Positions 1,814 through 11,811 of a stretch of 43,513 bases of DNA are shown one piece after another. The position numbers and the translations under genes are program-made. Where the stretch lies: the IMG/VR virus record IMGVR_UViG_3300025112_004324; one strand, 5' to 3'. The DNA comes from a virus. The first letter of the stretch is position 1; the number at the start of each line of letters is the position of its first letter. Under the pieces are notes generated by a model. It was not told the origin of the DNA. It worked only from the letters and a program-made list of their open reading frames with translations, and ran no database searches.

Positions 1814-1842
1814 TTTTGGCGTTTTTGGTTTATATATATAAT
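1814..1842 (+). promoter_or_regulatory. Putative promoter for the non-coding region
   Basis: Perfect TATAAT at 1837-1842 inside a TA-repeat tract; weak -35 (TTTTGG/TTGGCG) 15-17 nt upstream. Confidence 0.45.
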
Positions 1843-1846
1843 ATCA

Positions 1847-1877
1847 GTCTATAGTAATAGACAACAGTTTTTTGACA
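1847..1877 (+). promoter_or_regulatory. 5' hairpin plus boxA-like element (rrn-style antitermination leader)
   Basis: Hairpin GTCTAT-AGTA-ATAGAC (1847-1862), then AGTTTTTTGACA (1866-1877), which matches 8/12 positions of E. coli rrn boxA TGCTCTTTAACA. Confidence 0.4.
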
Positions 1878-1892
1878 TTTGAAATTGGCAAA

Positions 1893-2320
1893 GCAGAAAG
1901 GCCGTACACCTTTCTGTGGGGTTGACTGAACAACAGGTTTTGATAAAGGCTTGTAATGTATCCCAATCCTCTATGGTAGAGAATCAGCACCTAAATGTTG
2001 GTGTTTTTAGGATGACAGTCCGTGCGGGAGTTTGAGTCAACACTACTTGAGAAAGTAAACCAACTTTTTCGCTTCATTGGGAGTACCCGAAAGGAAATCT
2101 CCCTGAGAACTGGCTGAATAAATCTTCTTTGAGGATTAAAGCAATCGGTTAGAAATTGTATTCGCCTCAACGATGTTTAATAGCATTGAGAGAGAATCGA
2201 AGTAACTTTCGGAAACGAGATATGAAGTAATCTATCAAAGTGGCTCAATGTGAAATGGTATTTTCACACCCCCAAAAATTTCAAAATTTTAAAGTAGTTC
2301 GTTATTTTCAGTCTCCACCA
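1893..2320 (+). ncRNA. Candidate large, highly structured non-coding RNA (family unassigned; boundaries approximate)
   Basis: No ORF of 60 aa or more; GC visibly higher than the flanks; many local hairpins including GNRA loops (TACTT-GAGA-AAGTA 2044-2057; CC-GAAA-GG 2087-2094); several 7-11 bp long-range complementarities; flanked by a promoter and a terminator. Confidence 0.65.
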
Positions 2321-2358
2321 TACCACCAGACGTGAAAACGATGAGCTACTTTTTTTTT
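2291..2358 (+). terminator. Long hairpin followed by T9; probable intrinsic terminator
   Basis: 2291-2314 pairs with 2328-2352 (about 23 bp with one mismatch and one bulge); 13-nt loop CCACCATACCACC; T run at 2350-2358. Confidence 0.65.
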
Positions 2359-2368
2359 ACAAAAAAAC

Positions 2369-2423
2369 TTGGATGGTTTTAGAATCTGGCTGATATATAT
2401 TACAGAATGATGGTTACATCATT
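2369..2423 (+). promoter_or_regulatory. Putative promoter and 5' hairpin of the SSB/recombination operon
   Basis: TG-A-TATATA (2391-2399) resembles an extended -10; hairpin AATGATG-GTTA-CATCATT at 2406-2423; RBS GGAG at 2448-2451. Confidence 0.4.
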
Positions 2424-2459: not shown

Positions 2460-3218
2460 ATGGATATTGATGCAATTCGTAAGAAATTAGAACAACTTCA
2501 AACAACAAACACCAGAACAACAAATCTTTGGAAACCACAGCCTGGTAAAACTCAAATAAGGATAGTACCTTATAAGTACAATAAATCAATTCCGTTCATT
2601 GAGTTATTTTTTCATTATGACTTGGGCGGAAAGAGTTATTTGTCACCTATCAGTTTTGGTCGTCCAGACCCGATTGAAGAGTTCGCAGATAAACTAAAAT
2701 CTTCCGGAAATAGGGAAGATTGGAGACTTGGTAAAAAGTTAGAAGCCAAGATGAGAACTTTTGCTCCCGTTGTAGTAAAAAGCGAAGAAGGAGAGGGTGT
2801 TAAATTCTGGGGTTTTGGTAAGACAGTTTATCAAGAACTTTTAAGTATTATAGCAGACCCTGATTATGGTGATATTAGTGATCCCGTAAATGGTCGTGAT
2901 GTAGTAGTAGAGTTCAAGACAGCTGAAGAAGTTGGATCTTCATTTCCAAAAACAAATATTCGTGTAAAACCAAATCAAACTCCTGTAACTGAAAATAAGG
3001 CAGTATTTGAAAGTATTCTTGAAAATCAAAAGAACATCACAGAAATCTATCAGGAACAGTCTTATGATGAACTTGCAGAAGTTTTACAAAATTGGTTAAG
3101 TCCCTCTGATGACGAGACAACTACAAAAGAAAGTGATTCAGCTACAGAAGCCACTTTGGAACAGACAACAACTGTAACAAATGCATCTGAAGCATTTGAT
3201 GAATTATTTAATAAGTAG
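2460..3218 (+). CDS. T4 gp32-like single-stranded DNA-binding protein
   Basis: WKPQPGKTQIRIVP, FFHY, DPIEEF, FWGFGKTVY and DPDYGDISDPVNGRD motifs; acidic tail ending DAFDELFNK. Confidence 0.85.
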   Translation: MDIDAIRKKLEQLQTTNTRTTNLWKPQPGKTQIRIVPYKYNKSIPFIELFFHYDLGGKSYLSPISFGRPDPIEEFADKLKSSGNREDWRLGKKLEAKMRTFAPVVVKSEEGEGVKFWGFGKTVYQELLSIIADPDYGDISDPVNGRDVVVEFKTAEEVGSSFPKTNIRVKPNQTPVTENKAVFESILENQKNITEIYQEQSYDELAEVLQNWLSPSDDETTTKESDSATEATLEQTTTVTNASEAFDELFNK

Positions 3219-8954: not shown

Positions 8955-8990
8955 AACAGGCAGTTGACGCACCTGTTGAAAAATGCGTCA
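8955..8990 (+). promoter_or_regulatory. H-type RNA pseudoknot in the 5' leader of the TonB-dependent receptor gene
   Basis: Stem 1 AACAGG(8955-60)/CCTGTT(8972-77); stem 2 TGACGCA(8965-71)/TGCGTCA(8984-90); loop 1 CAGT; loop 3 GAAAAA. All 13 pairs are Watson-Crick. Confidence 0.6.
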
Positions 8991-9018
8991 TTTCAATAAA
9001 ACAATGAAGGAGACGATT

Positions 9019-11811
9019 ATGAAGAATCGTAACTTAATTTCTACATTGGCGGTGTTTTTTATGCCGATTGTTCTTTGGGGACAATCAGTTGCGGGAACAG
9101 TTACCGATGCAGAAACGAGTAAACCCCTAGTTGGAGCTAATGTTGTAGTAGAAGGAACTGATTTGGGTGCCGCTGCAGACGCAGATGGTGCTTATTCTAT
9201 CAAGGTAGATGCAGGTTCTTATACACTTACAGCTTCTTCAATTGGATATGCATCTCTTTCAGTAGAGGTTGATGTAGCGGAGGGGAAAGCGGTAAGTGCC
9301 GTAGACTTCTCCCTTTCAGTATCTGCATTAGAGATGTCTGCACTTGAGGTTTTGGCTTCGAGGGCAGATGAAAAAACACCTGTTGCTTATACTACGGTAG
9401 GAAAGGAAGAGATTGAATTTCGTCTTGGTTCACAAGACTTACCAATGTCTCTTAATCTTACTCCGAGTGTATATGCAACTCAACAGGGTGGTGGAGCAGG
9501 AGATGCACGTATCAATGTTCGTGGGTTTAACCAACGGAATATTGCGGTAATGATTAACGGAGTTCCACAGAATGATATGGAAAATGGTTGGGTCTATTGG
9601 TCTAACTGGGATGGTGTAGCAGATGTTGCACAATCCATCCAGATGCAACGTGGATTAAGTGCTGTTAATTTAGCTGCACCTTCTATTGGTGGAACTATGA
9701 ACATCATAACAGATCCTGCTGCTCTTGAAAAGGGTGGTAAATACAAACAGGAAGTTGGAGCAGGTGGATTCCTGAAATCAACTTTCAATTACAACACTGG
9801 GTTGGTAGCGGACAAGTTCGCTTTCAGTTTTACTGGTGTTAGAAAGACAGGTGATGGTGTCATAGACAAGACGTGGACAGATGCTTGGGCATATTACTTT
9901 GGTGCAAGTTACGCACTGAATGAAAAGAACCGATTCGAATTATATGCAGTCGGTGCACCACAACGTCATGGTCAGAATCTATACAAACAGAATCTTGGCG
10001 CATACGATGCCGAGTTTGCTGAAAGTGTAGAAGGATATGACGCTACAGCTCTTGGTGAAGATGGTCAGTTCAAAGATGTTGGACGAACATTTAACCAGAA
10101 CTGGTCACCAATTGACCCGTCTTATGAGGGTAAACAATATTGGTATATGTATGGAGCCAATACAGTTGCTAGACACGATCCTAACTATCTAAATGAAAGA
10201 GAGAACTTCTTTCACAAACCATTGGTTAACCTTAACCATTTCTTAACTATCAATGACAAAACAAGACTGAGTTCAGTCTTTTATTGGAGTGGTGGTTCAG
10301 GAGGTGGAACTGGTACTTATGGTAGGATTCCTACCTTAGATGCTGATGGTAACTTAGGTGATGATGATTATAAGTTCTATTATGGTCGTGGTCCCTGGAC
10401 TCGTGATTGGAATGCTCTTGTTGCTATGAACTCTGGCACAGATTCAGTAGTATATGTTGATAAGAGAGCTATTAGTAGAGAATCTGGTCAATCAGTAGGT
10501 ATTTTGAGGAACAGTATTAATCGTCAAAATACGATTGGTGTTATTTCTAAACTCAACTTAGATTTAAGTGATGCACTTAAATTACAGGCGGGTATAGATT
10601 GGCGTACTGCAGGTATAGAACATGCACGTGAAGTTCGTGATTTACTTGGTGGTGATTTCTATGTGGATTTTGCTGATGATAATGCACCTGATGGTAAAAA
10701 TGTTGAGTTAGGTGATATTATTGCTTATCACAATGAAACTACAGTTGATTGGTTAGGTGGATTCTTACAAGGATCATATTCCTCAGGTCCACTTTCAGCA
10801 TATGGTATGGGTGGAGTATCGAGCATTGCTTATACTTACCAAGACCATTTCACTGTTGCAGATGAAGTTATAGATCACGGTGATCCTATTATTACTACTC
10901 AGTTCAAAGGTGGAGCAATGTATGATGTTGCAGATAACGTTAGTGTTTTCGGTAACTTCGGTATTGTGGAAAAACCACCTATTATGGATAACGTGATTTA
11001 CTTTGATGGAACAGTTGCTTCAGACCCGGCAAATGAACAGTTTGTCAGTTCAGAAGCTGGAGTGAATTACAGTGCTAGAAATCTGGCAGTTAAAGTCAGT
11101 GCATACAATACAGATTGGAAAGATAGAAACCTTACCAAAGCTGTAACGAGTGGACAAGGTAGTTCAGGTGATACTGATGTTATCTTCTTATCTGGTATAA
11201 ACCAGAATCATAAAGGTGTTGAAGTAGAGGCATCTACTAATGTTACCAATATGGTTCGTTTGGATGCCGCAGTAAGTCTTGGAAACTGGACTTTTGTTGG
11301 TGATGCAGATGGTAATTATCAGGAAGATGAGTATAATGAACAAGGTCAGGTTGTTGGACAGACAACCACTCCATATTCTTACGCACTTGATGGTTTGTTT
11401 GTAGGTGATATGCCTCAGACAGCTTATGTTGTAGGTGTTACAGTAACACCAATAAAAGGACTTAGATTGCAATCTTCGTTCAATGTGTATGATGACAATT
11501 ATGCAGATTGGAGTCCTAATGCAAGAGAGTATGATGGTTCAGACGCAGACGCTGATAGAGAACAAGTATGGCAGGCACCTGGATTTTCTAGGATGGACTT
11601 ACATGCTACATACGATTTGCCAAAAATCGGTGGGTTGAATCTACAGGCATTTGCTCATATGTTTAACGCATTAGATGCTGTATATGTGCAGGATGCAGTA
11701 GATCACAGTCAATACAATAGTTACGGAGATAAAACTCACGCAGCTCATAACGCAGAAGTATTTCTTGGAATACCAAGATACTTTAATGCAGGTATTACTG
11801 TAAATTTCTAA
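9019..11811 (+). CDS. TonB-dependent outer-membrane receptor with N-terminal carboxypeptidase-regulatory-like domain
   Basis: Signal peptide MKNRNLISTLAVFFMPIVLWGQ; GTVTDAETSKPLVGANVVVEGT domain; plug motif INVRGFNQRNIAVMINGVPQND; beta-strand-rich barrel; terminal Phe (GITVNF). RBS AAGGAG favours ATG 9019. Confidence 0.9.
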   Translation: MKNRNLISTLAVFFMPIVLWGQSVAGTVTDAETSKPLVGANVVVEGTDLGAAADADGAYSIKVDAGSYTLTASSIGYASLSVEVDVAEGKAVSAVDFSLSVSALEMSALEVLASRADEKTPVAYTTVGKEEIEFRLGSQDLPMSLNLTPSVYATQQGGGAGDARINVRGFNQRNIAVMINGVPQNDMENGWVYWSNWDGVADVAQSIQMQRGLSAVNLAAPSIGGTMNIITDPAALEKGGKYKQEVGAGGFLKSTFNYNTGLVADKFAFSFTGVRKTGDGVIDKTWTDAWAYYFGASYALNEKNRFELYAVGAPQRHGQNLYKQNLGAYDAEFAESVEGYDATALGEDGQFKDVGRTFNQNWSPIDPSYEGKQYWYMYGANTVARHDPNYLNERENFFHKPLVNLNHFLTINDKTRLSSVFYWSGGSGGGTGTYGRIPTLDADGNLGDDDYKFYYGRGPWTRDWNALVAMNSGTDSVVYVDKRAISRESGQSVGILRNSINRQNTIGVISKLNLDLSDALKLQAGIDWRTAGIEHAREVRDLLGGDFYVDFADDNAPDGKNVELGDIIAYHNETTVDWLGGFLQGSYSSGPLSAYGMGGVSSIAYTYQDHFTVADEVIDHGDPIITTQFKGGAMYDVADNVSVFGNFGIVEKPPIMDNVIYFDGTVASDPANEQFVSSEAGVNYSARNLAVKVSAYNTDWKDRNLTKAVTSGQGSSGDTDVIFLSGINQNHKGVEVEASTNVTNMVRLDAAVSLGNWTFVGDADGNYQEDEYNEQGQVVGQTTTPYSYALDGLFVGDMPQTAYVVGVTVTPIKGLRLQSSFNVYDDNYADWSPNAREYDGSDADADREQVWQAPGFSRMDLHATYDLPKIGGLNLQAFAHMFNALDAVYVQDAVDHSQYNSYGDKTHAAHNAEVFLGIPRYFNAGITVNF

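What the first reader, a model, noticed from the sequence alone, without database searches (positions are those of the whole stretch)
1893..2320. Candidate large ornate ncRNA upstream of the SSB/recombination operon
Seen: about 430 nt with no ORF of 60 aa or more, packed with pairings. Local stems: 1893-1901/1909-1917 (9 bp), 2044-48/2053-57 (GAGA loop), 2079-83/2099-2103 (with GAAA loop), 2121-27/2131-37, 2166-70/2186-90 and 2249-55/2262-68. Long-range, partly crossing pairings: GTGGGGTTGACT 1916-27 with AGTCAACACTAC 2035-46 (11/12); TTTTGATA 1938-45 with TATCAAAG 2233-40; GTATCCCAAT 1958-67 with ATTGGGA(G)TAC 2076-86; CATTGAG 2184-90 with CTCAATG 2244-50. Some helices are mutually exclusive, which suggests switching or intermolecular pairing. 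Known: phages carry large multi-pseudoknot RNAs of unknown function (GOLLD and ROOL classes). Inference: a member of such a class or an undescribed one. This is the strongest candidate for a new element in the window.
Basis: partly seen in the sequence, partly recalled or inferred. Interest (0 to 1): 0.85.

Follow-up and report, generated by a model that had tools for sequence, protein, structure and literature searches.

The report
Fused double manA phage RNA
A large marine phage carries a ~390-base non-coding RNA gene made of two copies of the cage-forming "manA" RNA fused into one chain, with their helix strands swapped so that the two halves lock onto each other, a natural covalent dimer not described before that suggests manA's self-assembly contacts matter in nature.

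Summary
It is not GOLLD, ROOL or tmRNA. It is a tandem duplication of manA (Rfam RF01745) under one closing helix (1918-1922/2268-2272). 207 distinct full-length homologues occur in marine T4-type phages. 26 base pairs covary above a tree-based null. The second repeat passes the manA cut-off in 15 of 25 relatives; the first matches weakly. The P8 strands are exchanged between repeats: unswapped pairing scores at chance. Two strongly covarying kissing loops, plus one backed by a single double change, correspond to the contacts that join separate manA molecules in recent cryo-EM rings and cages. The gene has its own promoter-like site, boxA-like leader, leader-trailer helix and terminator, and changes neighbours, so it looks free-standing rather than a switch for the SSB gene. 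Most likely it is a self-assembling RNA scaffold; its cellular role, and whether it is expressed, are untested. This scan noted a look-alike once in another genome, without identifying it.

The parts
1814..1842 (+). Promoter-like site: T-rich upstream element plus alternating TA run
   Evidence: Motif within 130 nt upstream in 169 of 195 homologues vs 10 of 295 random windows. The same kind of motif lies directly before SSB in related phages that lack the RNA. Function inferred.
1867..1881 (+). boxA-like leader element (resembles the NusB/NusE site of rRNA leaders)
   Evidence: Present in 188 of 208 homologues; single copy in the 216-kb genome of a relative, at this RNA. Likeness to boxA rests on my recall of the consensus; binding not tested.
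1878..2285 (+). Leader-trailer helix P0 (1878-1886 with 2277-2285) enclosing the whole RNA
   Evidence: 9 bp in the window. Own-partner duplex 8.18 vs 7.21+-0.13 for permuted partners (max 7.51 of 200) and 5.24 for shuffled trailers.
1893..2272 (+). Conserved core: fused double manA RNA
   Evidence: 207 distinct full-length homologues; covariation; manA model hits on both halves.
1893..1917 (+). P1 hairpin; loop 1902-1908 carries a 4-nt palindrome (candidate self-kissing L1-L1 contact)
   Evidence: Stem pairs covary, 11-13 compensatory events each. Loops across homologues are mostly palindromes of several different sequences, otherwise mainly tetraloops.
1918..1922 (+). P2 5' strand; pairs with 2268-2272, the single closing helix for both repeats
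   Evidence: Three compensated variants in 63, 13 and 9 of 89 representatives.
1923..2029 (+). Unit I core: P3a/P3b and P4 four-way junction with P5, P6, P7 (first manA core motif at 1923-1933)
   Evidence: Covarying pairs 1925-1959, 1967-2027, 1987-2004, 2011-2019 and others; weak manA hit, up to 39.9 bits in relatives.
2032..2039 (+). Swapped P8 helix X: repeat-1 5' strand pairs with repeat-2 3' strand 2241-2248
   Evidence: Own 7.69 vs permuted 4.53; unswapped alternative 3.09, equal to chance; 10-11 compensatory events.
2059..2062 (+). Kissing strand pairing with loop L9 at 2256-2259 (L8-L9 type contact)
   Evidence: 2060-2258 always paired, 9 compensatory events; 5.08 vs 3.82 permuted.
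2071..2077 (+). Swapped P8 helix Y: repeat-1 3' strand pairs with repeat-2 5' strand 2222-2228
   Evidence: 2073-2226, 2075-2224, 2076-2223 covary; recovered independently by RNAalifold; 6.63 vs 4.89 permuted.
2079..2103 (+). P9 of repeat 1, joined by a short linker straight to the second core in place of P2 and P1
   Evidence: 4.97 vs 4.07 permuted; same flanking motifs as the final P9.
2111..2218 (+). Unit II core: P3a/P3b and P4 junction with P5, P6, P7 (second manA core motif at 2111-2121)
   Evidence: manA hit 39.8 bits, E 1e-8 in the window; up to 73 bits in relatives; a model of this half finds canonical manA.
2127..2132 (+). Loop L3 of unit II kissing 2235-2240 (L3-L8 type contact)
   Evidence: 2130-2237 always paired, 9 compensatory events; 2129-2238, 7 events; 5.92 vs 4.06 permuted.
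2155..2160 (+). Loop L5 of unit II; 2157-2159 predicted to pair with loop L7 of unit I (2015-2017)
   Evidence: One double change, G-C to A-U at 2158:2016, in one clade of 4 representatives; otherwise near-invariant. Weaker support than the other contacts.
2250..2267 (+). Final P9 hairpin
   Evidence: 2252-2265 and 2253-2264 with 14 and 13 compensatory events.
2291..2358 (+). Long terminator-like hairpin plus 9-U run; its loop holds the CCA that looks like a tRNA end
   Evidence: Fold -22.7 kcal/mol; hairpin plus U run downstream in 166 of 200 homologues vs 22 of 295 control windows. Missed, whose scan allows loops of 3-8 nt only.
2392..2402 (+). Second promoter-like TA-rich site, for the SSB operon
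   Evidence: Sequence; like the motif before SSB in RNA-free relatives. Inferred.
2460..3218 (+). gp32-like single-strand DNA binding protein gene (neighbour, not part of the RNA)
   Evidence: Pfam PF08804 E 2e-12; PHROG SSB.

Best explanation
A free-standing phage RNA gene encoding a covalent, strand-exchanged dimer of manA. It arose by tandem duplication with loss of the inner P2-P1 junction. Each P8 5' strand now pairs with the other repeat's 3' strand, so unit II sits as a circularly permuted manA inside the L8 loop of unit I (shown by covariation). The two units keep the kissing contacts that join neighbouring molecules in manA rings: L3-L8, L8-L9 and probably L5-L7 (pairings shown or partly shown; equivalence to the ring interface inferred). 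The free L5 of unit I, L7 of unit II and the palindromic L1 loop would link chains into a closed RNA-only assembly with alternating units, hence even-numbered rings (inferred). The RNA is probably made from its own promoter with an rRNA-like leader and terminated before SSB (inferred from conserved motifs), and acts in trans as a stable multivalent scaffold or decoy during infection. What it binds is not known.
For: Both halves match manA: (3' half above cut-off in 15 of 25 records with a hit; second 5' hit in 7, up to 39.9 bits, E 1e-10). A model of repeat 2 finds canonical manA at E 1e-7 to 1e-5; a model of repeat 1 hits repeat 2 at its exact start, 16.3 bits, E 0.002 in the window. 28 column pairs exceed the largest of 30 tree-based null simulations; 26 are base pairs with 4-17 compensatory events. 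Swapped P8 scores 7.7 and 6.6 vs unswapped 3.1 and 3.0, the latter at chance. The cryo-EM preprint 10.64898/2026.07.01.735769 names L5-L7, L3-L8, L8-L9 and L1-L1 as intermolecular contacts of manA. Promoter, boxA-like, leader-trailer and terminator statistics. 18 different non-SSB gene clusters follow the RNA in 55 homologues; RNA-free relatives keep the SSB promoter.
Against: Covariation cannot tell pairing within one chain from pairing between chains. Which L8 strand belongs to which unit is my geometric reading. L5(II)-L7(I) rests on one evolutionary event; L5(I)-L7(II) shows no covariation. Sequence-only profiles of the two halves do not detect each other, and the repeat-1 model misses canonical manA. 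manA cages are known only from in vitro refolding at high concentration, in a preprint. SSB is the next gene in 118 of 208 homologues.
Confidence: 0.6

Rival explanations
1. Same architecture, but the fused dimer is a self-contained monomeric particle: fusion satisfies the contacts inside one chain and the RNA acts singly, for example as a ligand- or protein-binding decoy or a ribozyme.
For: All covarying tertiary contacts could form within one chain. The second predicted interface L5(I)-L7(II) has no covariation. About 13 of 89 representatives have a tetraloop rather than a palindrome at L1. The invariant core motif is kept in both units, as expected of a binding or active site.
Against: L5(I) and L7(II) loops stay highly conserved and unpaired in the model. 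Several unrelated palindromes recur at L1, and L1-L1 is an assembly contact in manA_A0F1. All five single manA RNAs studied oligomerised.
Confidence: 0.2
2. A cis-regulatory leader (tandem riboswitch-like element, or a gp32 autoregulatory site as in T4) that controls the SSB-RecA operon through the downstream terminator.
For: manA was proposed as a riboswitch candidate (PMC2864571). SSB is the next gene in 118 of 208 homologues. [quoted passage not shown] Tandem aptamers are a known riboswitch arrangement (own knowledge).
Against: A terminator and a second promoter-like site separate RNA and SSB, and the start codon is about 190 nt away. RNA-free relatives have the promoter directly before SSB. 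18 other gene clusters follow the RNA.
Confidence: 0.12
3. A degenerate tmRNA or tRNA-like decoy, read from the G-rich 5' end at 1918 to the CCA at 2318-2320.
Against: No ARAGORN or Rfam tmRNA hit. The G run pairs with 2268-2272 with compensation. The CCA lies in the terminator loop and is not kept in most homologues. A close relative has a separate true tmRNA, 77.5 bits.
Confidence: 0.02

Closest known systems
manA RNA motif (Rfam RF01745; Weinberg et al. 2010, PMC2864571; structures in bioRxiv 10.64898/2026.07.01.735769)
   Same: Core motif after P2, P3a/P3b, P4-P5-P6-P7 four-way junction, P8, P9, closing P2; kissing loops L5-L7, L3-L8, L8-L9; marine T4-type phage origin.
   Different: Twice the length (about 380 vs 190 nt); two cores under one P1 and one P2; P8 strands exchanged between repeats; both the L3-L8 and the L8-L9 contact types in one RNA, whereas each solved manA uses one; the window itself scores below the cut-off (39.8 vs 55.2 bits); own terminator rather than a 5' UTR position.
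ROOL and GOLLD RNAs (Kretsch et al. 2025, PMC12286853)
   Same: Large phage ncRNAs of unknown function whose covarying kissing loops turned out to be intermolecular bridges of RNA-only cages.
   Different: No Rfam match; shorter (659 nt and over 800 nt for the solved ones); unrelated fold; rarely next to tRNA genes (18 of 334 loci hold any).
EGFOA strand-exchanged dimer (RF02955; same preprint)
   Same: Two units joined by exchange of helix strands.
   Different: That exchange is between separate molecules at the 3' end; here it is fixed inside one chain by duplication and divergence. Different family.
rRNA operon leader: boxA and leader-trailer helix (PMC10250234, PMC8632103)
   Same: A boxA-like element shortly after the promoter, followed by a leader strand that pairs with a trailer after the RNA.
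   Different: Helix of only about 9 bp; no boxB or boxC identified; Nus-factor binding and processing untested.

Membership tests
manA (RF01745) | Score at or above the gathering cut-off of 55.2 bits | tested here: inconclusive
   Window 3' half 39.8 bits, below cut-off; the 3' half of 15 of 25 relatives is above it, up to 73 bits; the 5' half never exceeds 39.9.
manA (RF01745) | Core motif with P3a/P3b and P4-P5-P6-P7 junction | tested here: met
   Present twice, with covariation in each copy.
manA (RF01745) | Single ~190-nt unit, one core closed by its own P2 | tested here: not met
   Two cores share one P2 across 355 nt; no single-unit version among 378 profile hits, apart from contig-edge or adapter truncations.
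manA (RF01745) | P8 formed as a local hairpin within the unit | tested here: not met
   Unswapped pairing scores at chance; swapped pairing covaries.
manA (RF01745) | Kissing loops L5-L7 and L8 with L3 or L9 | tested here: met
   L3-L8 and L8-L9 strongly; L5-L7 by one double change.
manA (RF01745) | Location in the potential 5' UTR of the next gene | tested here: not met
   Terminator-like hairpin after 166 of 200 homologues; varied downstream genes.
manA (RF01745) | Assembly into closed oligomers in vitro | not testable with these tools
   Needs mass photometry or cryo-EM.
GOLLD / ROOL | Match to the Rfam models | tested here: not met
   No hit even at E up to 10.
GOLLD / ROOL | Often beside tRNA islands | tested here: not met
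   tRNA genes in 18 of 334 loci; the tRNA cluster of the complete relative is about 15 kb away.
tmRNA | Alanine acceptor stem joining both ends, T arm, tag frame | tested here: not met
   the 5' G run is P2; the CCA is in the terminator loop.
Riboswitch / cis leader | Conserved alternative fold overlapping a terminator or ribosome site | tested here: not met
   Candidate alternative helices do not covary.
Riboswitch / cis leader | Ligand-dependent structural change | not testable with these tools
   Needs in-line probing.

The most novel reading that the evidence does not exclude
An RNA counterpart of gene duplication turning a homo-oligomer into a pseudo-symmetric heteromer: a fused, domain-swapped manA dimer, transcribed like an rRNA through a host Nus antitermination signal, that builds even-membered rings or cages different from the pentamer-based ones, and whose cross-unit covariation shows that the cage interfaces are under selection in vivo.
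Probability: 0.35. Interest if true: 0.85.

Novelty: new variant of a known kind. Interest (0 to 1): 0.68.

Why it matters
manA has been an unexplained riboswitch candidate since 2010 and was recently shown to form rings and a 60-subunit cage in vitro, with no evidence that this happens in cells. In single manA RNAs covariation cannot say which partner a loop pairs with. Here the two units have diverged, and the contacts covary across units while the alternative pairings sit at chance, so a natural experiment points to the subunit interface being selected. The fused form gives a sharp structural prediction (alternating units, even-numbered rings), a ready cryo-EM target with over 200 natural variants, and a case for reading manA as a free-standing phage RNA gene. 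It also shows that databases annotate only half of this RNA.

Tried and rejected
Rfam at gathering threshold: nothing; only the E-value search showed manA. tmRNA/tRNA-like reading rejected. Hidden small protein rejected: core lengths fall evenly in the three frames and the longest stop-free stretch has a median of 56 aa. Unswapped P8 rejected. Other loop pairings tried without support: L3(I) with L9(II), L3(I) with either L8 strand, L9(II) with either L8 strand, L5(I) with L7. L5(I) with L6(II) is complementary in the main group but absent in the window's subgroup, so left open. Pairing of L5(I) with the conserved loop of the terminator hairpin: no compensation seen in the variants. Sequence-only half-versus-half profiles were not significant. 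A scan for other tandem manA families found only this family, single manA RNAs and chance hits. No relative in cultured phages. Host not identified: the one GTDB hit is a contig with the same phage genes in a Pelagibacter MAG, probably a mis-binned phage contig. Fragments of this RNA may be among the 30-151 nt candidates of PMC10690425; its supplements are not held.

Full report
Setting. The window is part of a 53-kb IMG/VR virus fragment. The stretch lies between a 109-aa ORF ending at 1794 and a gp32-like SSB gene at 2460, which is followed by RecA, a 5'-3' exonuclease, a DnaB-like helicase, a B12-dependent ribonucleotide reductase, a TonB-dependent receptor and a family B polymerase. A complete 216-kb relative has a T4-type gp23 capsid gene, no sigma-70 region 2 match, five tRNAs and its own tmRNA. 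The host is unknown.

Observation. The listed pairings exist in the sequence, and the + strand folds better than all shuffles (z -3.1). Rfam gives nothing at gathering level. At E-value level it gives manA at 2079-2272 (39.8 bits, E 1e-8, cut-off 55.2) and a second faint manA hit at 1894-2049. There is no GOLLD, ROOL, tmRNA, RNase P or intron hit.

Homologues. Loci were gathered through SSB and, independently of gene context, through DNA patterns in viral and metagenome contigs. They gave 207 distinct full-length copies, mean identity 70%, 89 representatives at 95%. All partial hits are at contig edges or an adapter, so the two halves always travel together. Conservation runs from about 1867 to 2285.

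Two manA units. In relatives the 3' half passes the manA cut-off in 15 of 25 records with a hit (up to 73 bits), and 7 records give a second hit on the 5' half (19-40 bits, best E 1e-10). A covariance model of repeat 2 finds three canonical manA RNAs at E 1e-7 to 1e-5. A model of repeat 1 hits repeat 2 weakly but at its exact start, best in the window itself (16.3 bits, E 0.002), and misses canonical manA. Sequence-only profiles do not link the halves. Repeat 1 is thus the more diverged, and the duplication is old. The order of elements is P1, P2 5' strand, P3, P4 junction, P8 5', loop, P8 3', P9, then directly P3, P4 junction, P8 5', loop, P8 3', P9, P2 3' strand. That is a tandem duplication that lost the inner P2 and P1.

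Structure. A de novo G-test with APC against alignments simulated on the tree gave 28 column pairs above the largest null value; 26 are base pairs, 82-100% paired, with 4-17 compensatory events each by parsimony. RNAalifold found 65 pairs, 53 with double changes. One P2 closes the whole RNA, with three compensated variants. The P8 strands are exchanged: 2032-2039 pairs with 2241-2248 and 2071-2077 with 2222-2228. These score 7.69 and 6.63 against 4.53 and 4.89 for permuted partners, while the unswapped pairings score 3.09 and 3.02, the same as permuted. The result holds separately in the main group and, more weakly, in the window's subgroup. Unit II is therefore a circularly permuted manA inserted in the L8 loop of unit I.

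Tertiary contacts. Two kissing pairs covary strongly: 2127-2132 with 2235-2240, and 2059-2062 with 2256-2259 (9 compensatory events at the best column of each). A third, L5 of unit II with L7 of unit I, is backed by one double change in one clade. The cryo-EM preprint 10.64898/2026.07.01.735769 reports that single manA RNAs form tetramer and pentamer rings, octamers, decamers and a 60-mer, through L5-L7 plus either L3-L8 or L8-L9, with L1-L1 in the 60-mer. If each L8 strand is assigned to the helix it stacks on, all three contacts run from unit II to unit I with the polarity of the published interface. That assignment is my inference. L1 loops are mostly palindromes of several different sequences, otherwise mainly tetraloops, which fits a self-kissing contact. 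Covariation cannot say whether any contact is inside one chain or between chains.

None of the four covaries in either group. They are near misses: 2233-2240 pairs with the L3 loop of the second unit, not the first. The evidence for switching falls away.

Transcription unit. A promoter-like motif precedes 169 of 195 homologues (control 10 of 295), a boxA-like element opens 188 of 208, and a hairpin with a U run follows 166 of 200 (control 22 of 295; shuffled 19 of 86). A leader-trailer helix pairs better with its own partner than in any of 200 permutations. SSB is the next gene in 118 of 208, but 55 homologues are followed by 18 other gene clusters and upstream genes fall in 39 clusters. Related phages without the RNA have the same kind of promoter directly before SSB. 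The RNA behaves as a self-contained cassette. boxA plus a leader-trailer helix is how rRNA operons are arranged (PMC10250234, PMC8632103); the boxA likeness rests on my recall of the consensus and is untested. No reads could be examined, so expression is inferred.

Mechanism. Shown: a conserved RNA structure, two manA-derived units, one closing helix, swapped P8, two kissing loops. Inferred: independent transcription; one ring interface built into the chain; the remaining loops joining chains into closed assemblies with alternating units, hence even-numbered rings; a role in trans as a stable scaffold or decoy during infection, by analogy with the proposals for ROOL and GOLLD (PMC12286853). 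I put the architecture at about 0.9, free-standing transcription at about 0.8, and the whole explanation including assembly at 0.6. Rivals are a monomeric self-contained dimer (0.2), a cis leader for SSB (0.12) and a tmRNA-like decoy (0.02).

Novelty. The building block is known, and Rfam would annotate the 3' half of many relatives as ordinary manA. I found no description of a tandem, fused or strand-swapped manA in the searchable literature, which lacks most subscription papers. A pattern scan found no other tandem manA family. It works like manA and descends from it, but fails the single-unit, local-P8 and 5' UTR features, so I file it as a new variant of a known kind. Earlier notes of this scan record one look-alike without identification and two free-standing single manA genes. 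Interest 0.68.

Noticed in passing
window 2291-2358 and homologues: The terminator-like hairpin has a conserved inner stem and loop start in 145 of 200 homologues and occurs almost only after this RNA. It may be a 3' domain or a protein-binding site rather than a plain terminator.
   Followed up: partly
window 8983-11811: 942-aa TonB-dependent outer-membrane receptor gene, annotated in cluster members as a cobalamin receptor, directly after a B12-dependent ribonucleotide reductase: a phage may be supplying B12 uptake for its own enzyme.
   Followed up: no
L460:3170-3607 (complete relative G076): A phage-encoded tmRNA of about 438 nt, found by Rfam (77.5 bits) but missed by ARAGORN, 2.6 kb before five tRNA genes.
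   Followed up: no
L434, L438, L450: Canonical single manA RNAs in viral contigs start right after a sigma-70-like promoter and end in a U run, again like free-standing genes.
   Followed up: partly
window 1867-1881: The Rfam DUF2693 model begins with a similar element, so boxA-like leaders may be common before phage ncRNAs and be built into some Rfam models.
   Followed up: no
L427 (NHJA01000041.1): A contig in a Pelagibacter MAG carries this RNA with the phage SSB and RecA genes; probably a mis-binned phage contig.
   Followed up: partly
L018, L315, L016, L189, upstream of the RNA: In some homologues a further conserved hairpin-rich stretch lies between the promoter motif and the boxA-like element; it may be another small RNA. 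A tRNA-Gly or tRNA-His sits about 150 nt upstream in a few others.
   Followed up: no
L116, L159, L184: Chance pattern hits share an ORF-poor stretch with inverted repeats in host-associated phage or provirus contigs, unrelated to manA.
   Followed up: no
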